A stretch of 48,275 bases of DNA, taken from an uncultured Candidatus Sericytochromatia bacterium (GTDB lineage Bacteria > Cyanobacteriota > Sericytochromatia > UBA7694 > JACMQJ01). A program made the translations under genes and the position numbers. Positions 12,601-43,066 of the stretch are shown in pieces. Position 1 is the stretch's first letter, and each line of letters opens with the position of its first letter. The DNA is taken from NCBI GenBank assembly GCA_964422885.1, contig CAYRDV010000001.1, forward strand, positions 1 to 48,275, in the 5' to 3' direction. A model generated the notes under the pieces. The model was given only the letters and a program-made list of their open reading frames with translations. It did no database searches and was not told where the DNA came from.

Positions 12601-15131
12601 AGAAGGCCGTTTAGCCTGCCAAAAAGCATCAGGCCACTAATAAGTGAGTTCCTATATTCTTCATTTTCAATAACAGGATTGGTAATAGAAAAAGCCTTCT
12701 CATTCTGCCCGATCATTGTATAACTTGATGCTCTTATGCTTTGAAACTCTGCTGTTGTTTCCAGTCCCAGCCCTTTTTTTTCCAGGGCAGGAATCAGTTT
12801 TTCAGTTGTATCAAGACATATTCTGGGGGCAATCATATAGCTTATCCAGGCCAGTTTTTTCCAGGCTAACTCCAGGACAAAACTTTTATTAAAGTAATCT
12901 CCTGCTGTTTCCCTAGTTAGGTTTACCGTTTTTTCATCTCTACTGCATATTTCAAATAAATAAGCATTTAACCATGATTCTCCAAGATCTTCTTCCAATT
13001 GCTCTAGAAAATCTGTTGCTTGCTTTAAAAGCTGTGATGATTCCATTCTTACTGGAGAAGAAAAACCTGCCATCAATAAATATTTAATAGCCCGTTTTAG
13101 ATCAAAGCTTCGGCTAAAGTGGTAAGCTAATTCGCCTGAAATATTTACCAGTTGCTCCATATTTTCATTTTCGATAGTCTCTGCTACCTTTTGGTGCAGA
13201 TTTTTTCGGTTTTCTTCTCCCAAACTGCTGTAAAGAGTTTCTCTTACCCTGTCATGAGGAAACAAATATTCATGTTCAAATCTATTTAAAAATTGCCTTT
13301 CGATTAACTCATCAATTGAAACAAAAATTTCTTCTTCATCCCAGCCACTGACTGCTTTAAAAAGGGATAGTCTGAGTTTTCTTCCGGCTACTGCAGCCAG
13401 CCTGATTAGTTCCATTGCTTTTGGGCTTAAAGTATTTAAGCGCCTGTTTACTGTAGCTTCAATACTTGTAGGTAATTCCCAGGACGTATAATCGGTTGGT
13501 AAAAACCAGGTACCAAACCTTATTTGTAATATTCCTTCTTCAACAAGGTAACGCATTACTTCGCTTATGAAAAAGGCATTTCCTCCGGTCGCATTTTTTA
13601 CATGTTCAACAAAATCCATCTTAAGTTCAACACTGCCAAACATTGCTTTAATAAGGGAAGCAATATCTTCTGTTGTAAATGGTTCAAGCTTTACTAAAGT
13701 AGTAAGTTCTTCTTCAAGTGTTTGCCATAATGGGTGTCCTGGTGGTACTTCATCATCTCTGAATGTTCCCATAAACATTATTTTTGCTTTATGTAAGTCC
13801 CGGATACAGGTGTTTAATAGATCAATACTGGCCTGATCGATCCAATGTAAATCATCAATAAAAACAACTAATTCTTCTCTGATGGATACCCCTGACAGCC
13901 AGGCTGTAACAGTATCAAACAGCCTTAATTTTTCGGCAATTCCCTGTAAATTTTCTAAAGGTTCAAACCCTTTTTCTTTTAATTCGGGAAATAGTTTAAT
14001 TAGTATATTTCCATACTTTTCCAGTTCTTCCCTTGTTGTTAATGGAATAACCTGCCTTAAAGCATCTGCAACAGGTTTATATGCCGACATACCCTGCTCA
14101 AAGCAATGCCCTGTAAGAAAAGGATGTTCAGCAAGTTGCACATGAAGTTTAAATTCCTGGACTAATCTTGATTTACCTACACCAGCCGGAGCCGCAATAA
14201 ATACTGATTTACCATTGCTTTTAGAAACATTTTCTAATGATGCTTCAAGTATTTTAAGCTCTTTACCCCGACCAACAAGCACACTACTGCTTAAATAGCT
14301 TCTTTTTTGTTCCAAGGTCTCTGCTAATACTTCTTCACCAATAATTCCGGTAAGATCTGCAATTACTTCGGATGCTGTTTTGTATCTGTCCTGCTGATTT
14401 TTTTCCAGTAATTTTAAGATTATTTTTTCAAACTTTTCAGGAAGGTCATTTTTAAATTCGCTGGGTGGTGTAACCTGTGTATTTATATGTGCCCTGATTA
14501 CTTCAAGTACAGTTTCTCCAGTAAATGGTAATTTTCCTGTTACCATTTCATATGCCATTACTCCAACTGAGTAAAGATCTGAACTGGCATTGATAATTCC
14601 TCCGGTGGGAATTTCAGGCGGAAGGTAGTCTACAGTTCCTGTAATCTGACCATTACTTCTTAAGCCCATTTGATTCATCAGGCCAAAATCCATTACCTTT
14701 ATAGTGCCATCTCCTTTTATTCTGATATTTTGTGGCTTAATATCACAATGAACCAATAATCTTGAATGGATAAAACTTAGTGCCTGACATATTTGTATTA
14801 GTATCCTACAAATTTCTTTATAATCAAGGCCTTTTATTTCAGAAAGTTCTTTCCCTGGTACAACTTCCATTGTCAGGTAGGGTGATTTATCCGGCATAAT
14901 TCCATAGTCAAAAACATTAACAGTATTTGGATGTTTTAGTTTATTCATTACCCTGAATTCCTGTTTAAACTGGAGTAATGTTTCCGGTGAATCAGCAATT
15001 TGTTTTGAAAGAATTTTAAAGGCTACAATATCTTTGCTGAGATTGTCTTCTACCTGAAAGACGGATCCCATACCACCTTCACCTAATTTTTTTAAAACTT
15101 TATAACGGTTTGCAAGAACCTGCTCAGTCAT
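9633..15131 (-). CDS. Multidomain Ser/Thr protein kinase - STAND (AAA_16-type) ATPase - TPR array - GAF - GAF - PP2C/SpoIIE phosphatase
   Basis: Kinase: GEGGMGSVF, VAFKIL, HCDIKPQN, DFG, GTVDYLPPE. ATPase: Walker A APAGVGKSRL and Walker B VVFIDDLHWID. TPR-like helices span roughly aa 900-1150. Two GAF-like blocks (ADRGFLILLN.., LIYLDRQ; GGEIGYVL.., VIYMSSR). PP2C/SpoIIE: EVGGDYYDY, AFGDVTGHGVSAG, FTDGIVEA, DDITLVVVK. Confidence 0.9.
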   Translation of the reverse strand: MTEQVLANRYKVLKKLGEGGMGSVFQVEDNLSKDIVAFKILSKQIADSPETLLQFKQEFRVMNKLKHPNTVNVFDYGIMPDKSPYLTMEVVPGKELSEIKGLDYKEICRILIQICQALSFIHSRLLVHCDIKPQNIRIKGDGTIKVMDFGLMNQMGLRSNGQITGTVDYLPPEIPTGGIINASSDLYSVGVMAYEMVTGKLPFTGETVLEVIRAHINTQVTPPSEFKNDLPEKFEKIILKLLEKNQQDRYKTASEVIADLTGIIGEEVLAETLEQKRSYLSSSVLVGRGKELKILEASLENVSKSNGKSVFIAAPAGVGKSRLVQEFKLHVQLAEHPFLTGHCFEQGMSAYKPVADALRQVIPLTTREELEKYGNILIKLFPELKEKGFEPLENLQGIAEKLRLFDTVTAWLSGVSIREELVVFIDDLHWIDQASIDLLNTCIRDLHKAKIMFMGTFRDDEVPPGHPLWQTLEEELTTLVKLEPFTTEDIASLIKAMFGSVELKMDFVEHVKNATGGNAFFISEVMRYLVEEGILQIRFGTWFLPTDYTSWELPTSIEATVNRRLNTLSPKAMELIRLAAVAGRKLRLSLFKAVSGWDEEEIFVSIDELIERQFLNRFEHEYLFPHDRVRETLYSSLGEENRKNLHQKVAETIENENMEQLVNISGELAYHFSRSFDLKRAIKYLLMAGFSSPVRMESSQLLKQATDFLEQLEEDLGESWLNAYLFEICSRDEKTVNLTRETAGDYFNKSFVLELAWKKLAWISYMIAPRICLDTTEKLIPALEKKGLGLETTAEFQSIRASSYTMIGQNEKAFSITNPVIENEEYRNSLISGLMLFGRLNGLLTTGRFRQLVQDMEESVEILEKNLSKLHPPLVWAYGFASFIREDAVAWLGEPVGDNKYSETVIEIAKKYNHLDLDFWSYYPDVVHFSLTGNYDKIKNLQEKLMNMVKRMGRPIQHENRFNVCLAFAAIQNGQILEAKSMTKKIVELGQRLGNPHQQANGLILEAMLLMEENKFKEAIELFIQAVNLSQDEDEKLRNDQLLPALYRLSEAYLKNHQVEEALKVAEKAHSLASSDEFENPYHLANTYRLLGQVYAEKKDYENSHDYLMKSLGIAKENEITIQEAFTQIAIGEIWQERKKFDLTRTTWQKAIAKFREINNEYQANKLLPRLNSVPKPSLLSKNTPLKKETNIPLEPLKSVTNNVNRNSSQEHATDIGFKLIDLFSALGITGNRQETEQEEFSPENLVENQILIEKIKRVELLNNFGQMLLSSLNLNNILNIVIEKIIDVSEADRGFLILLNERGELYSQIVRTKEGSSGENKMLTFSKSFTEDVLKTGKPLWVADAQADSRFSTQRSVLALDLRTVICVPLKDNEKVIGLIYLDRQSVIKTFTEDDLNLVESIATFASIAIVNASLHQQANEKNEKLQMLNELSRTIANAFTREELLYKVLGFAIRITGGEIGYVLTGDELKCEARLNKEGNREIDLKISSSIIKKVTETNKSVSVVDTMDDKSISTQASIIALDIRSVMCVPLISNKKLLGVIYMSSRTLVKSFTQKDLSLLEDIVGQTAVAIENLNLLEVQRKQDQLKQELEIARNIQKSMMPSGEPQFEKLEISGYSCSATEVGGDYYDYIMLDEDRFAIAFGDVTGHGVSAGLLMAMAKSCMFVQCKVDPNVIPVMNALNSMILGGKSERRTRMGFLYSIYNMKDNTMTISSAGHPLPYYYKHEIKELEPITVIPAYQLGVKESTKFRESTIQLAPKDVLVYFTDGIVEARNTQGEEFGYDRMEDFIRGNSFLSSTELKEAILEEFYKWTVGVPEMEDDITLVVVKIK

Positions 15132-17879: not shown

Positions 17880-19022
17880 TTAGTTTTCTAACTTTGGATT
17901 ATATTGCATTGCCCGTTCATACATCCAGTCCCAGAATGAGGCCCGTAATGCTAAAGCCTTCCTCATCCCTTTTGCCAGTTCACGTCTTGATTGTTCAGTC
18001 TGTGCGTAATATTTTGCTATATTAAGCAATGTTGCCTGATGATGATCATCTACTGCTGTATGTAAAGGGAAAAATACCATATCACGTGGATCTAAGCCAG
18101 GTATACTTTGCAAAGCCTTAACAAATGGTTTGTAAAGATCACGTACAATACCCTCAGTACCAAGGCCAAGTGCTCCAATTGCTTCTGCTGGTGAACCACC
18201 AAGTACACTAAGAAACATTTCACGCCAGCAAACAACTTCAATTGAATCATCTTCAATAGCACTGTCTACTACACCAAGCGCATTTCTGAAGCGTTGAAAT
18301 AGTTTCGGATGTGGAATACCAACAATCCATTCGGCTTCAATACCAAATTCAGCCAGTTCCTGAATCTCTTCTTCACCATATACTCCAGATTCTTCTGTCA
18401 GGTTTTCGAGCAGGGCAGAACGATGGTCAGGTTTTTCTAGCCTGCTGATAACTGTTGTAAGGTAACGTGGAAAATGAGCAGAATAACCAAAATAATGACG
18501 ACCAAAATCAGCCATAGCCCAGCGTACATCTGGTAATGTCCCTTCAGCCAGAGCTTTTAAATACCGATGATTTACTGCACGATGGTTCCTTGCTTCTTCA
18601 GCCAGGCTTTCGAGATAGTTATCTACATCATCTGAGTCACCAGAACCTTCAAGACGTGTGTGCATACGTAAAGAGACAGCATTTATCCATGAAACGAGCG
18701 CATCAGAGTCATCTGCAAGAGCTCGTAGAAGTGTCTGACGGTCAAGAACACAAACATTTACATTGCCAACAGCCTTTACAGTTGCTGTTCTTGGTCTCCG
18801 ATCCAAAAAGGCAAATTCACCTACAATATCCCCTGCATGTACATAAGAATGAACCTTATCTTTACTATTTACTTCAACTTTGCCATCTTCAATAAGAAAT
18901 AATCTTTCATCGAAATCGCCTTCGCGAATGAATACTTCCCCGTCAGAGAGCTCTTTTATTGTACCTACGGATCTTACGCGGTTTACAACATTTTCAGGAA
19001 AAGCAGAAATCCATGTTGTCAT
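17880..19022 (-). CDS. Cyclic-nucleotide-binding domain fused to a heme-oxygenase-like (iron-containing redox enzyme / HDO-type) domain
   Basis: N-terminus: GDIVGEFAFLDRRPRTATVKAVG is the CAP/cNMP phosphate-binding-cassette-like motif. C-terminus: ENLTEESG...HPKLFQRF and HTAVDDHH (H-x3-D-x2-H) resemble di-iron ligand motifs of the CADD/PqqC-like heme-oxygenase fold. Confidence 0.65.
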   Translation of the reverse strand: MTTWISAFPENVVNRVRSVGTIKELSDGEVFIREGDFDERLFLIEDGKVEVNSKDKVHSYVHAGDIVGEFAFLDRRPRTATVKAVGNVNVCVLDRQTLLRALADDSDALVSWINAVSLRMHTRLEGSGDSDDVDNYLESLAEEARNHRAVNHRYLKALAEGTLPDVRWAMADFGRHYFGYSAHFPRYLTTVISRLEKPDHRSALLENLTEESGVYGEEEIQELAEFGIEAEWIVGIPHPKLFQRFRNALGVVDSAIEDDSIEVVCWREMFLSVLGGSPAEAIGALGLGTEGIVRDLYKPFVKALQSIPGLDPRDMVFFPLHTAVDDHHQATLLNIAKYYAQTEQSRRELAKGMRKALALRASFWDWMYERAMQYNPKLEN

Positions 19023-23549: not shown

Positions 23550-25871
23550 TTAAATAGTTAGGTTATGATAAAACCGGAACGTTTTTTCATCAAGTTCCTC
23601 TTCTTTTCCTAAATAAACTGTTGTTAGTTTATTATTTATTTCTTCCTGCCGGATATCTTCTTCAATTAATAAGTCATGAAATCTTTTCAGTATGGGGTTT
23701 TGCTCTTCAAAATGAAGCTTTAAAAGTTTAAATTTTACTTCCTTTGTTGAATTTACAATAGGATCAACTACATATTTTTGCAGGAAAAAACCTTCTTCTT
23801 CAGTATATGCAAGAGTGTAATGATCTAATTTATGTAAGTATAAAAGTGTTTCTTTGGTAAGTTCCTCAGATTCACAGGGAAATAAATAAGGGTTGAGTTC
23901 CCAGTGTTCTTTATCTTTATAAAAATCAAGATATTTAGGAAACTCTTCAGTACCGGGAATAGGTGTATACATCATAATTTTTGGACTTAAACCAAGGCGC
24001 CAGCCAAATATCATAGTTTTTATTATCTGTTCCAATGTCTGGTTTGGTAAACCAGTCATTATATAAAAACTCATATTTTTATAATTTGCTGCTTTTAGCT
24101 TTTCCACAGTTTCAGTAATGACTCCCAAATGGCTATTAGGACGGTGGAATCTTGTTTTATAAAGATCATATTCTGAAGATTCAATAGGTACATAAAGGGC
24201 ATTTTTAAGTTTAAATTTACTTAAGATTTCAATAAACTGATCATTAATCAATGCAAATTCAAGTCCATAAGAAAAATCGAGGGTAATAGATTCATTATAG
24301 CCATAGTCAATTAAATAATTTAAAAGAACATATAGATTTTCTTTACCAAATAAAAGATTACTATCCCAGAAAATATAATTGGTATATCCCATTGAATAAT
24401 ATTCCTGAAAATGGTTTATTATTGCTTCTTTCTGATATTCTGTTATTTTTCTTCCTTCAAGGTTGGGTACTACACAATATGAGCAGGTTCTTGGACACCC
24501 TTTTATAATACGCATAATTGCGCTGTCTTTTCCGCTGGTAAGTTCTATTAACGGTCTGTAGCTGTCAGCATTATGATAGGGTCCAACATGTACATCTACC
24601 CCAAGTTTTTTCATTTCATCCGGGCACAAGGATGGGTATACTCCCCCAACTGTAATTTTGATATTACCAAATACTTCTTTTATCTTTTCGATTATCTTAG
24701 GTAAATGAGGATAATGAAATGTCATTGTCATAGTTATATAGACTTCATCTATATCCTGTAAAGCTCTGATATATTTTTCAAAATCTTCAAGTGGTTTGCC
24801 ATAGACAAAAAGTTCTGCTTTTGATTTTAATTCTGATTTTTGCCCTTCCCGATAATAGTCGTAAGGTTCAAAATCATAATAGGCCACTTTTTCACCCTGG
24901 TTTACCAAATAGTGGGCGACTCTCAGAAGACCTGAAGGAGAAACAGAAAGCAGATATGAAGTTTCCCAGATATTCCCTGTTTCAGTAATAGAAGGATGTA
25001 TCAGAAGATATTTTTTATGTTCAGATTTTAAATTTTTATCATAATAAAAACCATCATCATCTTTAAGGATTTTGTGGTCTGTCGTTGTTGGAAACAAATT
25101 TGCTGGTATATATTTTATATCGGGATGATTTTTCCATTTTTGCCTAAAAATAGTAAAGTTTATTGGTATTCTGTTTTTTGTAATTTCCTGATTCTCTGCT
25201 CCTTTATCGTAATAAACTATAGTTCTATTACTAATATAGGTTTTAAAGCCTTTTTTAGCTGCCCTAAAACATAAGTCAAAATCTGCAAAAGACAGACAAT
25301 TTTCAAAAATAGTATCAAAACCACCACATTTAGCAATAACTTCCCGGTTTATCAAAGCACAGTAGGCAATTGTAAATGGAATTTCCGAAAAATTAGGATG
25401 GCTACTATTTTCCAGGAATTTATTAAAGTATTCTAGTTGTGGAATGATTTCAATTTTCTCATTAAAATTTACTGAAATATTAGGAAGTAAATCATTGTTG
25501 CATCTTGGTGCGACAATACCTGCATTTTTGTCTGAAAATACCTGTATTAATTTAGATAACCAGTTTTTAGAAACGATAATATGAGGATGAATTATTCCTA
25601 CTATTTGAGATTTCGAGATTTCCAAACCTTTGTTTAGACATGCTGTAAAACTGGTATTTTTATCTTTGGCAACTAAACTTACATTATTATTATTTTGCTT
25701 TAAATGAGTTAGGAAATCTAGTAAATTCCTATCTTCTATCCCATTATCTACAATTATCAAACGAAATGGTAAATCTGTGTTTTTAAAAATAAAATTAATG
25801 CATCTTTTTGTTTGAAAAAAATTATTTGATACAGGAAGTATTAAATCAATAATTTGGTCTTTATTTTGCAT
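23550..25871 (-). CDS. Fusion protein: family-2 glycosyltransferase + B12-binding-like domain + radical SAM domain
   Basis: GT2: LPFRLIIVDNGIEDRN. The Rossmann-like B12-binding-type segment ends ..IKITVGGVYPS. Radical SAM cluster motif is GCPRTCSYCVVP (CxxxCxxC). The listed ORF starts at TTG 25880; the ATG at 25871 is preferred but uncertain. Confidence 0.75.
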   Translation of the reverse strand: MQNKDQIIDLILPVSNNFFQTKRCINFIFKNTDLPFRLIIVDNGIEDRNLLDFLTHLKQNNNNVSLVAKDKNTSFTACLNKGLEISKSQIVGIIHPHIIVSKNWLSKLIQVFSDKNAGIVAPRCNNDLLPNISVNFNEKIEIIPQLEYFNKFLENSSHPNFSEIPFTIAYCALINREVIAKCGGFDTIFENCLSFADFDLCFRAAKKGFKTYISNRTIVYYDKGAENQEITKNRIPINFTIFRQKWKNHPDIKYIPANLFPTTTDHKILKDDDGFYYDKNLKSEHKKYLLIHPSITETGNIWETSYLLSVSPSGLLRVAHYLVNQGEKVAYYDFEPYDYYREGQKSELKSKAELFVYGKPLEDFEKYIRALQDIDEVYITMTMTFHYPHLPKIIEKIKEVFGNIKITVGGVYPSLCPDEMKKLGVDVHVGPYHNADSYRPLIELTSGKDSAIMRIIKGCPRTCSYCVVPNLEGRKITEYQKEAIINHFQEYYSMGYTNYIFWDSNLLFGKENLYVLLNYLIDYGYNESITLDFSYGLEFALINDQFIEILSKFKLKNALYVPIESSEYDLYKTRFHRPNSHLGVITETVEKLKAANYKNMSFYIMTGLPNQTLEQIIKTMIFGWRLGLSPKIMMYTPIPGTEEFPKYLDFYKDKEHWELNPYLFPCESEELTKETLLYLHKLDHYTLAYTEEEGFFLQKYVVDPIVNSTKEVKFKLLKLHFEEQNPILKRFHDLLIEEDIRQEEINNKLTTVYLGKEEELDEKTFRFYHNLTI

Positions 25872-26001
25872 TAAAATCAAATTCTATAAAGAATTGCCTT
25901 TATTTTAGTTTATCATTAATGTTTTAGAAAAGCAATAAACATCTTTTTGCTATTTTTTAAGAAAAAAGTGGTTTTACGTTTAGATTTATCTGATTTTAAG
26001 T

Positions 26002-37196: not shown

Positions 37197-37559
37197 TTAC
37201 TTCGATATTGCTTTAATTGAATCTTCTTCAGTTTCAAAAATTTCTGAAAACTGGGTAAGACCCATAATTGAAAATGTTTTACTAATTGTTTTGGTTAAAT
37301 TACAAAAGTAAATCTTTCCTCCAATATCAACTAATTTTTCAATTACTTCAATTAAAATTGAAATACCTATACTGTTAACAATATTAGATTTTTCAAAATT
37401 AATAATAAAATTTAGAATCCCTTCATTTATTAACTCATCTACTTTTTGACTAATTTTTTCGCCACCAAGATTATTTACATATCCTTCTGTTCTAAGGATA
37501 GCATAATTATTTTTTTTCTCTATTTTAACATCAAATGTTTCTACCACTTGTATCTCCAT
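37197..37559 (-). CDS. STAS-domain anti-sigma-factor antagonist (RsbV/SpoIIAA-like)
   Basis: ~120 aa. NFEKSNIVNSIGISILIE carries the conserved phosphorylatable Ser context (xNSxG). Confidence 0.8.
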   Translation of the reverse strand: MEIQVVETFDVKIEKKNNYAILRTEGYVNNLGGEKISQKVDELINEGILNFIINFEKSNIVNSIGISILIEVIEKLVDIGGKIYFCNLTKTISKTFSIMGLTQFSEIFETEEDSIKAISK

Positions 37560-37561
37560 AT

Positions 37562-37984
37562 TTATTTTAATTTAGTCATTTTAAGAGTTGTTCCTTCTGG
37601 ACTGCTTTCTATATCAACCGTATCCATCAACTTTCTTATTAGCATCAGACCCCAACCACGCTTATATGTAGATTTAAGTTTACTTTCTATTTTGGGATTT
37701 AATTCTATGGAACCTGGATCAAATCCCCTACCATTGTCTCTTATAATAACAGCCAATTCAGTACTATGCATAATAAATTTTATATAAAGTTTATTATCTT
37801 TACTGTTACTATGTTCAAATGCATTAATACAAGCTTCAATTAAAGCTAATTTTAATTCATCTATTTTGTCTTCATCAAATTTCATATATTCGGCTACAGC
37901 AGCAGCAGTTTCTATAGCCGCAACCTCAATATCCGGTACAATAGGTATTACCAGAGAGACCTCATTTAATGGTTCAGTATTCAT
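37562..37984 (-). CDS. RsbW/SpoIIAB-like serine kinase (HATPase_c_2 anti-sigma regulatory factor)
   Basis: N box ALIEACINAFEH, G1 IRDNGRGFD and G2 GWGLMLIRKLMD. 140 aa. Its stop lies 2 nt before the STAS start. Confidence 0.8.
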   Translation of the reverse strand: MNTEPLNEVSLVIPIVPDIEVAAIETAAAVAEYMKFDEDKIDELKLALIEACINAFEHSNSKDNKLYIKFIMHSTELAVIIRDNGRGFDPGSIELNPKIESKLKSTYKRGWGLMLIRKLMDTVDIESSPEGTTLKMTKLK

Positions 37985-38028: not shown

Positions 38029-38448
38029 TCATGGGATAACAGGTAATTCTATATCAAGCCGACCTTTTCCATTAAAGTAGGAATTTTTACTAAATTTTTT
38101 CCCATCCATTTCGTCAAAAGGAATATATACATCTACGAAAATTTCTCCTGCATCAACAGTTATAATATTACCTTCTTCATCATTAAAGTTTGAACCTATA
38201 ATTTTACCCTGCAATTCTGTATAGTATTTAGAATCCAGGTTATTTATTTTAGATTCCAGTTTAATGTCTGTTAATTCAAATTCTTTACAAAAAAGAGTAA
38301 GTCTTACATTAAACTCTTTATTAATCTGAAATTTATCAAGAGTAAAACCCTTTAATTTTTTTGAACTGTTAAACTCTGCTATAACATCAGCTTCGCCTGT
38401 TTCTGCATCCCAGATTTCAAAACTTAAGAGCTTTACTTTATTCAGCAT
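38029..38448 (-). CDS. Hypothetical small acidic cytoplasmic protein
   Basis: 139-aa ORF with no signal peptide. It starts 7 nt after the stop of the upstream lipoprotein gene. Confidence 0.5.
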   Translation of the reverse strand: MLNKVKLLSFEIWDAETGEADVIAEFNSSKKLKGFTLDKFQINKEFNVRLTLFCKEFELTDIKLESKINNLDSKYYTELQGKIIGSNFNDEEGNIITVDAGEIFVDVYIPFDEMDGKKFSKNSYFNGKGRLDIELPVIP

Positions 38449-38455
38449 AATTAAC

Positions 38456-39064
38456 TTATCTCATTTCATCAGGTATAAGAATATACCTGTCCGGACGAAG
38501 CTTTTTATAATAATAATAAGTTGCAATTTGACCATTTAACCTTGTTACACAAAACTCCCCGGTTTTTGGATTCCATTTATCAACACTTATTAGCTTTTCT
38601 TCTATATATGGACCCAAATCAAAATAATATTTCCAATCGGGACTTTTACTTCCTGAAGCTTTTAGAGCCATACTAAGGTAGTCTTCTATTTTTCTTACTG
38701 GAGGCTTAAAATCAGGACCATGTTTGATAAAATGTTTGGTCAGATTTGCTTTGGGGTTATTTTCTGGTCCAGGTGTCCATTCTCCGGTCGGATTTACTCT
38801 TGTTAACATAGAAATTTGCTGTAAATCGTTATTAGTAAGATTTACCTTGAAATTACGAATGATTGATACAAATTCAGCTGTTGATGAAGCATATAGATTA
38901 TTTGGTAAGGGCATTGCTGGAATTGCCTGAGCTTGTACTGAATCTGCAATCTGTTGGTTGTTTATATTATCTAAAAGCGGGGCTTCATCTTCACTACATG
39001 CAGCCATGAATAACATTAAGAAGATACTGATAAACCTTATTAGTAGTATATTTTGCTTATTCAA
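38456..39064 (-). CDS. Lipoprotein, unknown function (possible secreted enzyme)
   Basis: TTG start with a GGGAGA Shine-Dalgarno 8 nt upstream. Signal peptide with lipobox FMAAC. The C-terminal region contains LTKHFIKHGPDFK. Confidence 0.55.
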   Translation of the reverse strand: MNKQNILLIRFISIFLMLFMAACSEDEAPLLDNINNQQIADSVQAQAIPAMPLPNNLYASSTAEFVSIIRNFKVNLTNNDLQQISMLTRVNPTGEWTPGPENNPKANLTKHFIKHGPDFKPPVRKIEDYLSMALKASGSKSPDWKYYFDLGPYIEEKLISVDKWNPKTGEFCVTRLNGQIATYYYYKKLRPDRYILIPDEMR

Positions 39065-39535
39065 AATAAATTCTCCCGGTAAAAAATATTTCCAGTAGTT
39101 AAATTATAGAAATTTTTATATTAAAACTTGTTAATCAAAAAAGTATCAATGACAAGTTCCCATAAACCTTATTTTAATTTTAGCATAACTATTTATTATG
39201 GTTATAACTTTTCCTGTTAATCAATTTGTTTTTTTACCCTTGAAGAGAAAGCTCTTAATAAAAACTATTTTTTTCGCTTGATTGTTTATTGGTCGCATTT
39301 AGATTAGTGATTATTTTTTTAAGAAAAGAAAGTTTTTAATTTTGCTAATTCATAAATCCTGGTAATTCTGATTGTGACTTTTTTCCTCATTGACCATCGT
39401 AGTAAATCGTTACTAATAAATGGTTTCAATAAATCGTGAATGCTCAAACTAATGATATAAATTAAAGTTATTAAATAGAATCTGGCACTCATTACCAATT
39501 TGTTTGAGTATTTACCTCTTTGGTCAATCTAAGCT

Positions 39536-39557
39536 CCCTTTCCTTTGAAGGAAAGGG
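39536..39557 (-). other. Perfect 10-bp hairpin downstream of the three-gene operon (no U-tract)
   Basis: CCCTTTCCTT-TG-AAGGAAAGGG lies 26 nt beyond the minus-strand stop at 39583. No T-run follows on either strand, so terminator function is unproven. Confidence 0.3.
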
Positions 39558-39582
39558 CTGGGGTATGGTTAGAAAAAAAGTA

Positions 39583-39963
39583 TTACGGTTCAGGAAATTT
39601 TGCGTCCTGAATTTTTACAACAACACCATCATGTACTACAAGTTCGCTTATTACGTCATTTACAACAGGCAATTTATCTTCAATACCAAAATTAATCCTG
39701 CCTGGAATAAACTGATAAAAAGGTCCAGCACTATAACCAATTTTTTTAATATATTTCTGAAATTTATCAAGAAAGTCAGGGGGAATAAACGGTTCTCCTT
39801 CTTTTATCTGAGAAGTAAAAATCTTAACTGCCATTTCAGTAGCTGAAGGTGAATCAAATAATGAATAAGCTTCTCTTGATAATTTGTTAAAGTATTCCGG
39901 ACTGTTTTTTATTCTTAATTTTACTGCACCTTCTAGGGTAATGCTGTTTTCTTGTGCTGACAT
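39583..39963 (-). CDS. Hypothetical 126-aa protein, third gene of the paralogue operon
   Basis: Its ATG (39961-39963) directly abuts the TAA of the upstream gene (39964-39966). No motif recognised. Confidence 0.6.
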   Translation of the reverse strand: MSAQENSITLEGAVKLRIKNSPEYFNKLSREAYSLFDSPSATEMAVKIFTSQIKEGEPFIPPDFLDKFQKYIKKIGYSAGPFYQFIPGRINFGIEDKLPVVNDVISELVVHDGVVVKIQDAKFPEP

Positions 39964-40884
39964 TTATTTCTTTCCAAATCTTGTCATTAAACTTCTAACA
40001 AATCCAATATTTTCTAATTTTTTAAGAGGCATCAATATCATACCCCTAATTAGGTTTTTTTGGAAGTTTTTTTCTTCTTCAATTCTGCCTGCAACAAAAC
40101 GATCCGTATTTGCTCTGGCATGACTTTCAGAATAACCTGATATTTCTCCGGTGGCTTCCCATATGCCATCATTACAAGCATATTTTAATTTCTGATCCAA
40201 CTGCTTTGTATATTCTAATTTTGACTGATAATTTTTAAAATAGATTGATAACATGAACAAAGAAGCCCCAAGGCTGTGAGCTGCAAGCTTCATACTGTAA
40301 CCAATATTAATCTTTCCAAATATTATTTCAGAAGAAATAATTTTCATTGCTTCAGCCATAATCTTAGGATCATCATCATGTGGAGAAATTGCCATAAGGC
40401 CAGTTACAATCATTTTAATTGCTTCCTGTAACCGGACTTCATTTTCTTTTGCGGCTTGCATTGAGCCCTGTACTATTTCTCTGGTGATATTTCTATATTC
40501 AGGAGAAAGAATATCAGGTGTGTCCGCCATTGCCTCAACCATTTGGTTGAGAAGAGCTTTTTGCATATTTGTTCCTACACCATTTTCGGCATTAGGATCT
40601 GCATTTGCCGCAACGGTATTAAATACTGCTGAGCCAATTGCACCAAGACTATATTCTTTTATTTGCTCAACAATTGATTTATCACGGACATGGCTTACAA
40701 CCTCTGCCCCGGCAGGGACAAACATGTCCTGTGAATGACCATCAAGAACGCTTGAGCCCTTGATAACAGCCGTTGCCCTCCTTGCATTACTGGAGACATT
40801 CCGGCGATTCATCTGGCCTCCGGCACCGCCTTTGCGATTACCAGATCCTTCTTTTTTTACAAGTTCATCTGTTTGTTCAGCCAT
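39964..40884 (-). CDS. Hypothetical protein, paralogue B (short basic/Gly-rich N-terminus + conserved ~238-aa domain)
   Basis: Aligns without gaps to the C-terminal ~238 aa of the 40921..42255 product, with about half the positions identical by eye. Shared strings include QDMFV, REIVQGS, VTGLMA.SPHDDD, GKINIGY, KNYQS, EEEK and GMIL.PLKK. Confidence 0.7.
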   Translation of the reverse strand: MAEQTDELVKKEGSGNRKGGAGGQMNRRNVSSNARRATAVIKGSSVLDGHSQDMFVPAGAEVVSHVRDKSIVEQIKEYSLGAIGSAVFNTVAANADPNAENGVGTNMQKALLNQMVEAMADTPDILSPEYRNITREIVQGSMQAAKENEVRLQEAIKMIVTGLMAISPHDDDPKIMAEAMKIISSEIIFGKINIGYSMKLAAHSLGASLFMLSIYFKNYQSKLEYTKQLDQKLKYACNDGIWEATGEISGYSESHARANTDRFVAGRIEEEKNFQKNLIRGMILMPLKKLENIGFVRSLMTRFGKK

Positions 40885-40920
40885 TTTTTACTTATACCCT
40901 AAACTCCATTATTAAGCTTT

Positions 40921-42255
40921 TTAGCTATTAATCACTTTCTTTAAGGGCGAAAGAATCATCCCCTTAACTAAATTTTTCTGATAAGATTTTTCTTCTTCTA
41001 ATCTTCCAGTCATAAATTGTTCAATATTTGCCTTGGCATATACCTGTGAAAAATTACTGACTTCACCAGTTGCTTTCCATATTGCTTCACTAAAAGCTGT
41101 ATTAAGTTTATGCTCCAAATCTTTTGTAAATTCAATCTCAGACTGATAATTTTTTAAATAAATCGAAAGTGTAAATAAAGCTGCTCCAAGACTATAAGAA
41201 GCTGACTTCATATTATAACCAATATTTATCTTACCATAAATAACTTCCGAAACGATTGATTTAATTGTTTCAGCCATGATTCTTGCGTCATCATCATGAG
41301 GTGACATTGCCATAAGACCTGTAACAAGCATTTTTACCAAATCTTTTTGTGAAAGATTTGATTCCTGAGCTGCCTTTAAAGAACCCTGAACTATTTCTCT
41401 AACCAGACTTTTGTATTCAGGTGTAAGAACATCATTAATGTTTTCCATACCATTTACTATTTGGGCATATAGATTTTTTTGCATACTGATACTTATGCCA
41501 TTTTTTTCTTTACGATCAACATTTGCTGTTACAGTATTGTATATGGCAGAACCAACCTGACCAAGGTCATATTCTTTAAGGTTGTCTATTACTGTTTTAT
41601 TTCTAACACTACCAATGCTGGTCGTACCGGATGCAACAAACATATCCTGTGTTTGGCTTTCACTAACTTTTGCCCCTTCAATTACTGAAAGAGGTTTTGG
41701 AGCAAACACAGCTTGTTTACGACGACGTCTGCGTCTGCCATTTTCATCTTCATCATCATCATCCGAATTACTCCGGCGATTAACCCAACTATTACTTATC
41801 TGAGATTTACCTCTCGGAACTCCTTCATTAAATCCTAAAACACTTTTACCATTAGCATTAGTATGTTCACTATTTTGATCATCTGTTTTTGATCTTCTTT
41901 CGCCTACCTGATCATTTTTATCAGCTGTTGAACCTTTTTGGGTACTTAACTGAGTCATAAATTTCTGTGCTTCCTGAGTAGATGTGTTCTGTGGGCTTAC
42001 TGGTTTTCCGCTTATATCTGGACGGGTCTCTTCATTTTTTGGCGCATTTGCTGCTGTTTTAATAGCCGTAAATGCTGCTTTATCTTCTTTAACTACAGTT
42101 TCAGCTAACATTTGTGTCTTGGCATCTTTGGCATTTCCTAGTTTTTGCCCGAACTCAGGGTTTTTAACATCACTTTTGTTATTAAAATTAGCGTATCTTT
42201 CTGCAATATTGCTTGCTGCATTTGAAAGATTAATGTTTGAACTCCCATAACTCAT
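40921..42255 (-). CDS. Hypothetical protein, paralogue A (~200-aa disordered N-terminus with an acidic-then-basic block + conserved ~238-aa domain)
   Basis: Low-complexity N-terminus ending in SDDDDEDENGRRRRRRKQ. The C-terminal domain is paralogous to 39964..40884. Confidence 0.7.
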   Translation of the reverse strand: MSYGSSNINLSNAASNIAERYANFNNKSDVKNPEFGQKLGNAKDAKTQMLAETVVKEDKAAFTAIKTAANAPKNEETRPDISGKPVSPQNTSTQEAQKFMTQLSTQKGSTADKNDQVGERRSKTDDQNSEHTNANGKSVLGFNEGVPRGKSQISNSWVNRRSNSDDDDEDENGRRRRRRKQAVFAPKPLSVIEGAKVSESQTQDMFVASGTTSIGSVRNKTVIDNLKEYDLGQVGSAIYNTVTANVDRKEKNGISISMQKNLYAQIVNGMENINDVLTPEYKSLVREIVQGSLKAAQESNLSQKDLVKMLVTGLMAMSPHDDDARIMAETIKSIVSEVIYGKINIGYNMKSASYSLGAALFTLSIYLKNYQSEIEFTKDLEHKLNTAFSEAIWKATGEVSNFSQVYAKANIEQFMTGRLEEEKSYQKNLVKGMILSPLKKVINS

Positions 42256-42491
42256 AGTTTATTTACCCCAGTCTAAAAGATAGATATAAGATTACTATTT
42301 TACTAATTCTATTATAAAGCTTTAATTCGAGATATACCATTATAAGTTCAATAATTTTATTTTAATAAATTGTAAAAGTTAAACTTCTGTTTATATTACA
42401 GTTAAAATTTGATTCATAGTAGCAAGAATTTAACATTAAGTGATATATTTAAAAAAGAGAGTAAATTTTCAGAGTTGAGGGTTGAGAGAAA

Positions 42492-43001
42492 ATGACACAA
42501 GTTTATGGTAACTACGGTGCGCAGCCAGTATATGGTGCTCAACAACCTGCCGGTGCAGGGCCTGTTACTTACAGCCCAGGTATGCCTACCCCATACAGAA
42601 ATGATCAGTTTCAAAATACTCAGCAAAATAATGGCGGTTTATTAGGTGGCTTAACAGCTAATAACAAACCTTATGTAACCAAACAAACTGTTATTACAGC
42701 AGCAGCTCTGGGCATCGGTGGTTTTCTTTGTTTCGGGCCAATTGGTGGAATAATCGGTGCTATCGTTGGTTTATTAATCGGAATTTTCTCCAATATGTCA
42801 AAAATGAAATCTGAAGAAAAAATGGCTCAGCAACAACCTAATGGCGGTATGCCAACCCAGCAAATGTATAGCCAAAATCAGCCAATGTCAGCTAATCAGC
42901 AATATTATCAGCAGAGAATGCAGCAACAGCAACAACAGCAGCAACAACAGGGTGGGCAACAGCAGCCTTTCAACCCTTATCAGCAATATCAGCAAAGATA
43001 A
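42492..43001 (+). CDS. Q/N/Y-rich low-complexity protein with a central glycine-zipper transmembrane segment
   Basis: GAGG Shine-Dalgarno. N-terminus VYGNYGAQPVYGAQQP. TM/glycine zipper GIGGFLCFGPIGGIIGAIVGLLIGIF. The C-terminus is Q-rich, including 10 consecutive Gln codons (42921-42950, mixed CAG/CAA). Confidence 0.65.
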   Translation: MTQVYGNYGAQPVYGAQQPAGAGPVTYSPGMPTPYRNDQFQNTQQNNGGLLGGLTANNKPYVTKQTVITAAALGIGGFLCFGPIGGIIGAIVGLLIGIFSNMSKMKSEEKMAQQQPNGGMPTQQMYSQNQPMSANQQYYQQRMQQQQQQQQQQGGQQQPFNPYQQYQQR

Positions 43002-43011
43002 AATAAACAAT

Positions 43012-43039
43012 AAAAAAAAGGCTTTAAGCCTTTTTTTTA
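43012..43039 (+). terminator. Rho-independent terminator (A8-GGCTT-T-AAGCC-T8)
   Basis: Palindrome just after the TAA at 42999-43001. The GC stem is short and extended by A/T pairs. Confidence 0.55.
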
Positions 43040-43066
43040 TTGTTTATTGGATATGAGGTTTTTAGA

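What the first reader, a model, noticed from the sequence alone, without database searches (positions are those of the whole stretch)
39583..42255. Three-gene operon of two tandem paralogues plus a stop/start-coupled small gene, none assignable to a known family
The 444-aa and 306-aa products share a C-terminal domain of ~238 aa. It aligns without gaps, with about half the positions identical by eye (QDMFV, PEY..REIVQGS, VTGLMA.SPHDDD..IMAE, GKINIGY.MK, KNYQS, GR.EEEK..QKNL..GMIL.PLKK). Both precede it with disordered, charged N-termini. The long one ends in an acidic-then-basic block (SDDDDEDENGRRRRRRKQ); the short one is Gly/Arg-rich (NRKGGAGGQMNRRN). The shared domain looks helical, with one hydrophobic stretch (LGASLFMLSIYF / LGAALFTLSIYL). 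The 126-aa third gene starts at the nucleotide after the second gene's TAA. I recognise no catalytic, nucleotide-binding, secretion or phage motif in any of the three. The operon is bracketed by the long non-coding gap on one side. On the other side a 236-bp divergent promoter region leads to a Q/N/Y-rich glycine-zipper membrane protein. Duplicated scaffolding-like subunits, a small partner and a prion-like membrane protein would fit a structural or assembly module such as a cytoskeletal, condensate-forming or membrane-remodelling system. That is speculation.
Basis: partly seen in the sequence, partly recalled or inferred. Interest (0 to 1): 0.7.

Follow-up and report, generated by a model that had tools for sequence, protein, structure and literature searches.

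The report
Orphan helical-protein operon of Sericytochromatia
This is a real, strongly conserved gene module found almost only in the non-photosynthetic cyanobacterial class Sericytochromatia: a helical-repeat protein (here duplicated and split into two complementary halves) plus a small coupled partner; it matches no known protein family, and its function is untested, though it looks most like a scaffold that may attach to the membrane.

Summary
Three minus-strand genes, A (444 aa), B (306 aa) and C (126 aa), exist as described. A and B share a 271-aa domain with no gaps (52% identity). C's ATG directly follows B's TAA.

Nothing matches in Pfam, NCBIfam, PADLOC, PHROGs, PDB sequences, or Foldseek against PDB and viral structures. 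An exhaustive profile search of 1.84 billion cluster representatives finds only 29. All named close members are Sericytochromatia.

AlphaFold2 gives a confident all-helical, repeat-like domain behind a disordered N-terminus.

New findings:
- The conserved core is the helical gene plus the C-family gene, adjacent in 16 of 18 loci.
- Most lineages have one ~460-aa gene, then C, then a HEAT-repeat protein.
- Only the window's clade has the tandem pair.
- The parts were split in a complementary way. A keeps the long disordered arm, lacks the 13–17-aa C-terminal tail and evolves fast. B lost the arm, keeps the tail and is 75–84% conserved.
- The "hydrophobic stretch" is a buried helix, not a transmembrane segment.

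Best reading, by inference only: a cytoplasmic A–B hetero-oligomeric scaffold, possibly membrane-tethered through the amphipathic tail. The family is new at sequence level, its fold is generic and its function is untested. Interest is moderate.

The parts
40921..42255 (-). Gene A (444 aa). This is the fast-evolving paralogue: a long disordered N-terminal arm plus the helical domain, ending 4 residues after the PLKK motif with no C-terminal tail.
   Evidence: ORF. Paralogy. Long-branch A-type clade. N-terminal and C-terminal lengths.
41686..42255 (-). Disordered, N/S/K-rich N-terminal arm of A (aa 1-190, pI 9.4, GRAVY -1.27).
   Evidence: Composition. The equivalent N-terminal region of B is predicted disordered by AF2; A itself was not modelled. 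Coordinates.
41713..41766 (-). Acidic-then-basic charge block SDDDDEDENGRRRRRRKQ (A aa 164-181). A basic cluster at this position precedes the domain in all family members.
   Evidence: Coordinates. Alignment A1 shows RKRRRPRQ, RRQY or NRRN at the same place.
41632..41685 (-). Conserved linear motif of A, VIEGAKVSESQTQDMFVA (aa 191-208), upstream of the folded domain.
   Evidence: Gly, Asp and Phe are invariant in 26 sequences.
39964..40884 (-). Gene B (306 aa). This is the slowly evolving orthologue of the single-copy long form: a short N-terminus, the linear motif, the helical-repeat domain and the C-terminal amphipathic tail.
   Evidence: ORF. 75-84% identical to B of L004-L007. Nested within the single-copy clade.
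40714..40767 (-). Conserved linear motif of B, VIKGSSVLDGHSQDMFVP (aa 40-57). It lies in the part that AF2 leaves unstructured.
   Evidence: Invariant G43, D53 and F55. pLDDT 31-50. Coordinates.
40012..40677 (-). All-helical repeat-like domain of B (aa ~70-291). It includes the superfamily signature REIVQG (40465-40482), the Sericytochromatia-specific loop SPHDDD (40369-40386) and the buried hydrophobic helix LGASLFMLSIYF (40237-40272).
   Evidence: AF2. Foldseek. Invariant columns. Hydropathy. Coordinates.
39967..40014 (-). C-terminal cationic amphipathic tail ENIGFVRSLMTRFGKK (B aa 291-306). It is present in all B-type and single-copy members and absent from the A-type.
   Evidence: Modelled as a separate helix of lower confidence, H294-304.
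39583..39963 (-). Gene C (126 aa, pI 5.4). This small partner starts directly after B's stop codon. A member of its family lies immediately downstream of the helical-domain gene in 16 of 18 loci.
39536..39557 (-). Hairpin (9 bp in the RNA fold) located 25 nt after C's stop codon. It has no U-tract. It may mark the transcript end, but it is not statistically unusual.
   Evidence: Sequence. Fold (centroid -14.2 kcal/mol; z = -1.66 for the 71-nt stretch).
39065..39582 (.). AT-rich 518-bp non-coding spacer between C and D. No Rfam family matches it.
38456..39064 (-). Gene D (202 aa from a TTG start). It is a predicted lipoprotein (signal sequence plus LFMAAC lipobox) with a conserved GEWTPGPENN...KHFIKHGPDF core. 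It lies downstream of C in L007 (L001 and L002 are the same genome) and occurs on two further short contigs, at least one of which also carries A-like and B-like genes. It is an accessory neighbour, not part of the core.
42492..43001 (+). Divergently transcribed single-pass membrane protein (169 aa). It has a Y/G/Q-rich N-terminus, an NKPYVTKQTV motif, a glycine-zipper TM helix and a poly-Q tail. It sits next to the module in 4 of 19 loci.
42256..42491 (.). 236-bp AT-rich divergent intergenic region between A and the Q-rich gene. Promoter-like hexamers occur at the chance level.

Best explanation
The locus encodes a cytoplasmic scaffold-type complex restricted largely to one bacterial class.

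Ancestral form (seen in most Sericytochromatia). It is one ~410-480-aa protein built from four parts:
1. A 150-220-aa disordered arm with acidic and basic charge blocks.
2. An ~18-aa conserved linear motif (I-K-G-x-x-V-x-x-G-x-[ST]-Q-D-M-F).
3. A ~220-aa alpha-helical repeat domain.
4. A 14-21-aa cationic amphipathic C-terminal helix.
Its gene is always followed by a small acidic partner (the C family) and usually by a HEAT-repeat protein.

Window's clade. A tandem duplication split these parts. A kept the arm, lost the tail and diverges quickly. B lost the arm, kept the tail and is held almost constant.

Shown: the anatomy, the conservation, the synteny, the complementary loss and the fold class.

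Inferred:
- The helical domains self-associate, so A and B now form a hetero-oligomer that together restores the ancestral set of parts.
- C binds this complex; its expression is coupled to B.
- The amphipathic tail tethers the complex to the inner face of the cytoplasmic membrane, or alternatively docks a partner.
- The disordered, charge-patterned arm and the linear motif recruit other components. In other lineages the HEAT-repeat protein is the obvious candidate.
For: - Real and under selection. B is 75-84% identical between genomes in which A is 38-60%, C 30-39%, D 46% and the Q-rich protein 46-57% identical. Mean column identity across the domain alignment is 68%.
- Functional linkage. 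The helical gene and the C-family gene are adjacent and co-oriented in 16 of 18 loci, while the flanking genes differ. C follows B's stop codon directly.
- HEAT-repeat partner. A HEAT-repeat gene follows C in 11 loci (HEAT_2 E=2.8e-60).
- Complementary loss. All single-copy forms have both arm and tail. All B-type forms have a 28-57-aa N-terminus plus the tail. All A-type forms paired with a B have a 190-226-aa arm and end 4-6 aa after PLKK. In the tree, B is nested inside the single-copy clade and A sits on a long branch.
- Soluble helical-repeat fold. AF2 gives pLDDT ~90 over aa 70-290 with 10 helices. The best Foldseek matches are designed helical-repeat proteins (TM 0.69-0.73 normalised to the target). 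No TM-grade hydrophobic segment exists.
- Tail. The hydrophobic moment is 0.5-0.8, against 0.45 for the MinD and 0.78 for the FtsA membrane-targeting helices on the same scale. A cationic, amphipathic and hydrophobic C-terminus occurs in 67 of 77 B/single-copy members but only 8 of 269 control proteins.
- No catalytic signature. Across the whole superfamily only R and G of VR(D/E)IVQG and one Glu are invariant, and the SPHDDD loop is lost in distant members.
- Ordinary chromosomal context, with no phage or defence signal.
Against: - No experiment or complex prediction supports the A-B, B-C or HEAT interactions. AF2-multimer was not available.
- The amphipathicity test does not separate A from B. 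The A-type C-termini (...LSPLKKVINS) pass it 14 of 14 times. The membrane-tether reading therefore rests only on the resemblance of the extra segment to known targeting helices.
- C could not be modelled (pLDDT 41), so its role is unknown.
- The HEAT partner is absent from the window.
- L003 and L019 have the helical gene without a detectable C.
- 'Scaffold' is a default reading for a conserved non-enzymatic helical-repeat protein and may simply reflect ignorance.
Confidence: 0.35

Rival explanations
1. A polyanion-binding (RNA, DNA or polyphosphate) protein that may form condensates. The Arg-rich and Gly/Arg-rich segments of the disordered arm would bind nucleic acid, and the helical domain would oligomerise.
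For: - An RRRRRRK block in A, RKRRRPRQ followed by Gly-rich stretches in the long forms, and NRKGGAGG..NRRN in B all lie directly upstream of the domain.
- The charge-patterned arm has GRAVY -1.27.
- Several weak Foldseek hits are RNA-related alpha-solenoids such as the UPF2 MIF4G domain, CNOT1 and Pat1. These are non-specific, with E>0.2.
Against: - No nucleic-acid-binding domain is detected.
- No RNA gene or conserved non-coding element accompanies the module.
- B, the most conserved copy, has only a vestigial basic segment.
- The Foldseek hits are at chance level.
Confidence: 0.15
2. A secreted or exported substrate, or a pair of substrates, with a dedicated small chaperone (C). This would be analogous to type III or flagellar substrate-chaperone pairs. 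The disordered N-terminus and linear motif would be the signal and chaperone-binding region.
For: - A small acidic protein (pI 5.4) is coupled to the substrate gene.
- The N-terminus is disordered, and a conserved linear motif lies in an unstructured segment.
- Neighbours are often envelope proteins: lipoprotein D, the Q-rich membrane protein and other lipoproteins in L005.
- In one distant lineage the homologue lies in a 15-gene cluster of unknown proteins rich in coiled coils and Ala/Gln.
Against: - C matches no chaperone family.
- No secretion-system genes are conserved near any locus.
- Foldseek finds no translocator, gatekeeper or flagellar axial protein.
- 75-92% identity over the whole domain is unusual for effectors.
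- The arm is lost in B without loss of conservation.
Confidence: 0.12
3. A metal-dependent enzyme or metal-binding protein that uses the invariant His and Asp residues of the SPHDDD loop.
For: H169 and D172 are invariant in 26 Sericytochromatia sequences, along with other invariant polar residues.
Against: - The loop is not conserved in distant members of the superfamily (SPIES, STKSK, SPFTED).
- The fold is a helical repeat with no enzyme neighbour.
- No Pfam or NCBIfam enzyme family matches.
Confidence: 0.07
4. A toxin-immunity, pore-forming or anti-phage defence module. This would be a helical bundle with a buried hydrophobic helix, in the manner of colicin pore domains, with C or the membrane protein acting as immunity.
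For: - A roughly 10-helix bundle with one hydrophobic helix.
- An adjacent small gene and a glycine-zipper membrane protein with a weak holin-family hit (phrog_1350, 1e-4).
Against: - No PADLOC or PHROG hit for A, B or C.
- No members in viral contigs.
- No colicin, Bcl-2 or diphtheria-toxin T-domain structures appear among the top 50 listed Foldseek matches.
- There is only one weakly hydrophobic helix, not a hairpin.
- The module is single-copy, confined to one class and highly conserved, which is the opposite of arms-race genes.
Confidence: 0.04

Closest known systems
Alpha-solenoid (HEAT/ARM-type) scaffold proteins, including the cyanobacterial PBS-lyase HEAT-like repeat proteins
   Same: The fold is all-helical and repeat-like. 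It has no catalytic signature. In most lineages it is encoded in one operon with a bona fide HEAT-repeat protein.
   Different: A and B have no sequence match to any HEAT, ARM or TPR profile. The domain is compact (~220 aa) and conserved over its whole length rather than repeat by repeat. It also carries a disordered arm, a linear motif and an amphipathic tail.
De novo designed helical repeat protein DHR4 (PDB 5cwb) and derivatives (6vfi)
   Same: These are the best structural matches: about 200 aligned columns, rmsd 3.6-4.2 A, TM 0.69-0.73 normalised to the target.
   Different: They are designed proteins, so there is no evolutionary relation. Identity is 12-14%, E-values are 3e-3 or worse, and the TM-score normalised to the query is only 0.47-0.50.
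Peripheral membrane proteins anchored by a terminal amphipathic helix (the MinD and FtsA membrane-targeting sequences; comparison drawn from my own knowledge of those systems)
   Same: A short C-terminal segment follows a Gly/Pro break. It has an F-x3-L-x3-F hydrophobic stripe flanked by Arg and Lys. Its hydrophobic moment lies in the MinD-FtsA range.
   Different: There is no ATPase or actin-like domain and no homology. Membrane binding is untested. The metric also scores the tail-less A-type termini as positive.
Bacterial hub proteins made of a disordered region plus a helical oligomerisation domain (PopZ, McdB; comparison from my own knowledge)
   Same: The architecture is a charged disordered region followed by a conserved helical C-terminal domain. 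The presumed role is recruitment.
   Different: There is no sequence or structural relation and no ParA-type partner nearby. Oligomerisation is not shown.
Type III or flagellar substrate plus dedicated chaperone gene pairs
   Same: A larger protein with a disordered N-terminus is followed by a tightly coupled small acidic protein.
   Different: There is no chaperone-family match, no export apparatus in any neighbourhood and no structural match to known substrates.

Membership tests
HEAT/ARM/TPR helical-repeat families (Pfam) | Significant match to a HEAT, ARM or TPR repeat profile | tested here: not met
   A and B give only sub-threshold noise. By contrast, the operon partner in other lineages scores HEAT_2 at 2.8e-60.
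HEAT/ARM/TPR helical-repeat families (Pfam) | Stacked helix-turn-helix repeats forming a solenoid | tested here: inconclusive
   AF2 gives 10 helices at pLDDT ~90. The best Foldseek hits are designed helical repeats, with TM 0.47-0.50 by query and 0.69-0.73 by target. Internal repeat periodicity was not analysed.
MinD/FtsA-type membrane-targeting-helix proteins | Terminal cationic amphipathic helix | tested here: met
   Hydrophobic moment 0.5-0.8. 67 of 77 B/single-copy members pass against 8 of 269 controls. Caveat: A-type termini also pass.
MinD/FtsA-type membrane-targeting-helix proteins | ParA/MinD ATPase or actin-like fold | tested here: not met
   No Pfam or NCBIfam match. The fold is all-helical.
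MinD/FtsA-type membrane-targeting-helix proteins | Demonstrated binding to membranes | not testable with these tools
   This needs localisation or liposome assays.
ESCRT-III / PspA / Vipp1 membrane-remodelling proteins | PspA_IM30 or Snf7 profile match and a long helical-hairpin fold | tested here: not met
   No profile match. No such structures appear among the top 50 listed Foldseek PDB matches.
Pore-forming colicin / Bcl-2-like helical bundles | Buried hydrophobic helical hairpin and a structural match | tested here: not met
   There is only one helix, with a 19-residue Kyte-Doolittle maximum of 1.0-1.2. No such PDB match was found.
Type III / flagellar substrate-chaperone pairs | Chaperone of a known family (CesT, FliS, FlgN or FliT type) | tested here: not met
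   The C-family profile gave nothing significant against PDB sequences or Pfam. The C model is unusable.
Type III / flagellar substrate-chaperone pairs | Export apparatus genes in the neighbourhood | tested here: not met
   None is conserved across the 18 loci. The window has only a T2SSE-type ATPase about 17 kb away.
Known anti-phage defence systems (PADLOC) | Match to a defence-system protein model | tested here: not met
   No hit for A, B, C, D or the 139-aa protein.
Phage proteins (PHROGs, BFVD, IMG/VR) | Sequence or structural relative in viruses | tested here: not met
   PHROGs E>0.03. BFVD Foldseek E>0.04 with TM<0.27. No member in viral contigs.
Bacterial microcompartment shell (BMC domain) | Significant BMC-domain match | tested here: not met
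   Only PDB sequence hits at E=0.055-0.83 over about 40-60 residues of a helical region. No Pfam BMC match.

The most novel reading that the evidence does not exclude
The module is the core of a previously unrecognised, class-specific cell-biological system of the Sericytochromatia, the deepest-branching cyanobacterial class. In this reading it is a self-assembling, membrane-associated lattice or filament. It would be built from a new helical-repeat protein, or from an A/B heteropolymer after duplication. Its disordered arm would recruit a HEAT-repeat partner and other factors, for example for division, envelope organisation or polarity.
Probability: 0.15. Interest if true: 0.7.

Novelty: new variant of a known kind. 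Interest (0 to 1): 0.4.

Why it matters
Sericytochromatia are uncultured, and their cell biology is essentially unknown (PMC6340189). This gene pair is present in at least 16 species-level genomes of the class and almost nowhere else. One component is held at 75-92% identity. That makes it a candidate lineage-defining cellular component and a useful marker for the class.

The tandem pair also gives a clean natural example of subfunctionalisation at the level of domains. The arm stays with one copy and the tail with the other. This yields a directly testable prediction that the ancestral protein is a homo-oligomer and that A and B form an obligate hetero-oligomer.

At the same time, orphan conserved families are common in uncultured phyla. 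Nothing here points to an unprecedented mechanism, so the finding is worth recording and testing but is not startling.

Tried and rejected
1. Curated families. Pfam, NCBIfam, PADLOC and PHROGs gave nothing for A, B, C, D or the 139-aa neighbour. Scanning 16 diverse family members for recurrent weak Pfam hits also gave nothing.
2. PDB sequence searches. Profiles of the domain and of the C family gave only noise. D and the 139-aa protein gave nothing.
3. Foldseek of the B model against PDB and BFVD returned only designed repeat proteins or noise.
The 2-sequence run gave pLDDT 41, which is unusable, so no Foldseek search was run on it.
5. The homology search for C found only 2 proteins and that for D only 3. 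C's wide distribution was recovered from synteny instead.
6. Phage origin was rejected: there are no members in IMG/VR.
7. Transmembrane reading of the hydrophobic stretch was rejected.
8. More context for distant members.
   - Pattern generation from the divergent alignments failed.
   - The metagenome scan with P0087 found nothing.
   - The 13.5-kb contig that carries P0106/P0107 returned a gene table but no DNA.
9. The 112-aa gene next to the distant homologue P0087 was tested as a C relative. The hhalign probability was 2.5%, so this is suggestive only.
10. The 202-aa ORF after C in L006 is not a D homologue.
11. Literature. No paper describing this family was found.


Full report
OBSERVATION. 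BLASTP of A against B gives 52% identity and 77% positives over 271 residues with no gap, E=2e-108. It starts at a short linear motif (VIKGSSVLDGHSQDMFVP in B, VIEGAKVSESQTQDMFVA in A). B's TAA is followed directly by C's ATG (AAATAAATG). The A-B spacer is 36 nt. The acidic-then-basic block of A (aa 164-181) and the Gly/Arg stretch of B (aa 16-29) are present. The 236-bp divergent region and the 518-bp gap downstream of C are as described.

NO KNOWN FAMILY. Pfam, NCBIfam, PADLOC and PHROGs give nothing above noise for A, B or C. A profile of the domain finds nothing among PDB sequences. A word-indexed search of 5.8 billion proteins returns 65 relatives. All are unnamed or 'hypothetical', and every named source is Candidatus Sericytochromatia or 'Cyanobacteriota'. 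An exhaustive HMMER profile search of 1.84 billion cluster representatives returns only 29. A scan of 185,579 species-representative genomes returns 16 loci, all Sericytochromatia including Ca. Blackallbacteria. No member occurs in IMG/VR viral contigs. The window itself is ordinary chromosome. It carries LigA, a GGDEF protein, an RsbW/STAS pair, PNP, an ABC permease, a P450, GatA and a giant Ser/Thr-kinase signalling protein.

STRUCTURE. AlphaFold2 with a 26-sequence alignment models B residues ~70-291 as ten helices at pLDDT ~86-96. It leaves residues 1-67 unstructured, and it gives a separate, less confident terminal helix at 294-304. Foldseek against the PDB finds only de novo designed helical-repeat proteins at the top. 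DHR4 and its derivatives align over about 200 columns at rmsd 3.6-4.2 A, with TM 0.69-0.73 by target and 0.47-0.50 by query. No natural protein scores better than E~0.08. The viral structure library gives nothing. The 'hydrophobic stretch' reaches only 1.0-1.2 on a 19-residue Kyte-Doolittle window and lies within helix 198-218 of the bundle. A and B are therefore soluble proteins. D, in contrast, has a signal sequence and lipobox, and the Q-rich protein has a true TM helix.

SYNTENY: WHAT THE UNIT REALLY IS. I clustered all ORFs from the window and 17 independent loci, using no information from the window to define the clusters.
- The only neighbour conserved throughout is the C family (111-155 aa). 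It lies immediately downstream and co-oriented in 16 of 18 loci.
- Window C is only 30-39% identical to its orthologues. This is why a direct homology search found almost nothing.
- In 11 loci, which belong to the lineages with a single ~460-aa helical gene, C is followed by a ~449-aa protein. This protein is an unambiguous HEAT-repeat protein (HEAT_2 2.8e-60, also HEAT_PBS).
- The tandem A+B+C arrangement is confined to the window's clade (window, L004, L005, L006, L007). The flanking genes there differ from genome to genome. No HEAT partner lies in the window.
- D, a lipoprotein with a conserved KHFIKHG.DF core, follows C in L007 (46% identity). It also occurs on two other short contigs, and the 13,357-bp one also carries A-like and B-like genes.
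- The divergent Q-rich glycine-zipper membrane protein recurs in L005, L006 and, in shorter form, L019. That makes 4 of 19 loci across two clades.

DUPLICATION AND COMPLEMENTARY LOSS. A neighbour-joining tree of 89 domain sequences places the short B-type proteins inside the slowly evolving clade of single-copy long forms. The A-type proteins form a separate clade with long branches. The rates are very unequal. Between the window and L004-L007, B is 75-84% identical, the A domain 38-60% and C 30-39%. Across all members the pattern of parts is clean.
- Single-copy forms have a 150-220-aa N-terminal arm and a 14-21-aa segment after the PLKK motif.
- B-type forms have only 28-57 N-terminal residues but keep that segment (ENIGFVRSLMTRFGKK in the window).
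- A-type forms paired with a B keep a 190-226-aa arm but end 4-6 residues after PLKK.
- Three deep-branching A-like sequences (P0075, P0076, P0077) still have both parts.
This is subfunctionalisation at the level of protein parts. The simplest inference is that both parts are needed in one assembly. It follows that the ancestral protein self-associates and that A and B now act as a hetero-oligomer.

THE TAIL, THE MOTIF AND THE ARM. The tail follows a Gly/Pro break. It forms an F-x3-L-x3-F stripe flanked by Arg and Lys.
- Its 11-residue hydrophobic moment is 0.5-0.8. On the same scale the E. coli MinD membrane-targeting sequence scores 0.45 and that of FtsA 0.78.
- A C-terminus that is amphipathic, cationic and hydrophobic to this degree occurs in 67 of 77 B/single-copy members but only 8 of 269 control proteins from the same loci.
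- Caveat: the tail-less A-type termini also pass this crude test (14 of 14). The physico-chemical metric therefore does not discriminate between A and B, and the membrane-tether reading is an inference from resemblance only.
- The linear motif upstream of the fold has invariant Gly, Asp and Phe yet lies in the unstructured part of the model. This is typical of a segment that folds on a partner.
- A basic cluster precedes the motif in every member.

DISTANT MEMBERS. Six remote relatives keep the VR(D/E)IVQG and G..GY.MK helices but lose the SPHDDD loop. They carry other N-terminal modules, for example TPR repeats in P0093, and several end in hydrophobic-basic tails. Their contigs have 24-70% G+C, so the superfamily exists sparsely outside Sericytochromatia. 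In one lineage a 112-aa gene overlaps the start of the helical gene, in two independent contigs (L022 and L146). It resembles C at equivalent positions, but not significantly (hhalign probability 2.5%). That homologue sits in a 13.5-kb run of 15 genes, none of which has a Pfam hit.

INTERPRETATION. Shown: this is a real gene module under purifying selection, restricted almost entirely to one class. It belongs to no curated family. It has a helical-repeat fold, an obligate small partner and a frequent HEAT-repeat partner, and its parts were partitioned in a complementary way after duplication.

Inferred (confidence about 0.35): it is a non-enzymatic cytoplasmic scaffold. The helical domains oligomerise, with A and B forming the hetero-oligomer in this genome. 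C and the HEAT protein dock on it. The cationic amphipathic tail may hold it at the membrane, and the disordered charge-patterned arm recruits clients.

Rivals, with rough confidence:
- A polyanion- or RNA-binding, condensate-type protein (0.15).
- An exported substrate with C as its chaperone (0.12).
- A metal-dependent enzyme using the SPHDDD loop (0.07).
- A toxin or defence module (0.04).
The remaining probability is 'something else'.

COMPARISON WITH KNOWN SYSTEMS. The module works most like helical-repeat scaffolds and like peripheral membrane proteins with terminal targeting helices. It is a member of none of these families. It fails the sequence tests for HEAT, ARM and TPR. It lacks the ATPase or actin-like fold of MinD and FtsA. 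It has no structural match to ESCRT-III/PspA, colicin-type bundles or type III substrates. It has no defence or phage relatives.

NOVELTY AND VERDICT. At sequence level this is an undescribed family and an undescribed gene module. At fold level it is generic. Its function is untested. I rate it a new variant of a known kind, namely helical-repeat scaffold-type proteins, rather than categorically new, because no evidence points to an unprecedented mechanism. Interest is moderate (0.4). The finding is useful as a class-specific component of a poorly known lineage and as a neat case of domain-level subfunctionalisation, but orphan conserved families are common in uncultured phyla.

Noticed in passing
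window 38456-39064 (-): Gene D has a proper lipoprotein signal (MNKQNILLIRFISIFLMLFMAAC) only if it is read from the TTG start (202 aa). The public gene call for this contig is 186 aa (P0096), which by length would begin near the internal Met at residue 17 and truncate the signal peptide. The start codon is probably mis-annotated.
   Followed up: partly
window 9633-15131 (-) and 37197-37984 (-): An 1832-aa signalling protein combines a Ser/Thr kinase, an AAA_16 domain, TPR repeats, two GAF domains and a PP2C-type (SpoIIE) phosphatase. About 22 kb away lies an RsbW-like anti-sigma kinase plus a STAS anti-anti-sigma pair. This may be a partner-switching circuit.
   Followed up: no
window 23550-25880 (-): A 776-aa protein fuses a family-2 glycosyltransferase with a B12-binding domain and a radical-SAM domain. 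This domain combination caught my eye as unusual.
   Followed up: no
window 17880-19022 (-): A 380-aa protein joins a cyclic-nucleotide-binding domain to a haem-oxygenase-like iron-containing redox enzyme domain (Haem_oxygenas_2).
   Followed up: no
window 43002-43048: A long AT-rich perfect inverted repeat (20-bp stem around AAGGCTTAAAGCCTT, flanked by T and A runs) lies between the Q-rich gene and the PHP-domain gene. It looks like a bidirectional terminator, and it overlaps the listed TTG start of the PHP gene.
   Followed up: no
window 38029-38448 (-): The 139-aa acidic protein (pI 4.7) directly downstream of D matches nothing in Pfam, NCBIfam, PADLOC, PHROGs or PDB sequences. It has no counterpart in the related loci.
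   Followed up: partly
L022 1-6358, and the 13.5-kb contig of GCA_041443025.1 (gene table only): The distant homologue P0087/P0107 lies in a run of 15 genes with no Pfam hit. Several are Ala/Gln-rich or coiled-coil proteins, and two end in ...QQLLR or ...FQALR. From memory this resembles flagellin-type C-termini, but no flagellin profile matched.
   Followed up: partly
L020 1610-2275 (+): In this 63% G+C relative the gene after the helical-domain gene encodes a 221-aa protein with a KKKEDREGRGRRPRP charge block. This block resembles the one inside the disordered arm of A, as if the arm were a separate polypeptide there.
   Followed up: no
L016 12623-13685 (-), and equivalents in L008, L009, L011, L014, L015: A convergently oriented pair of unknown genes (~186 aa and ~164 aa, no Pfam hit) recurs directly after the HEAT-repeat gene. 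The 186-aa gene is in six loci of the single-copy lineages and the 164-aa gene in five of them. They may belong to the same system.
   Followed up: partly
L005 11321-12259 (+) and L003 9269-10873 (+): In two loci that lack D, the next gene downstream looks to me like a papain-like (NlpC/P60/LRAT-type) hydrolase. The L005 product is a 312-aa lipoprotein judged by eye from its sequence and not scanned. The L003 product had only a weak LRAT hit (3.8e-4, below the Pfam cutoff). Envelope-directed neighbours seem to recur, although the families differ.
   Followed up: no
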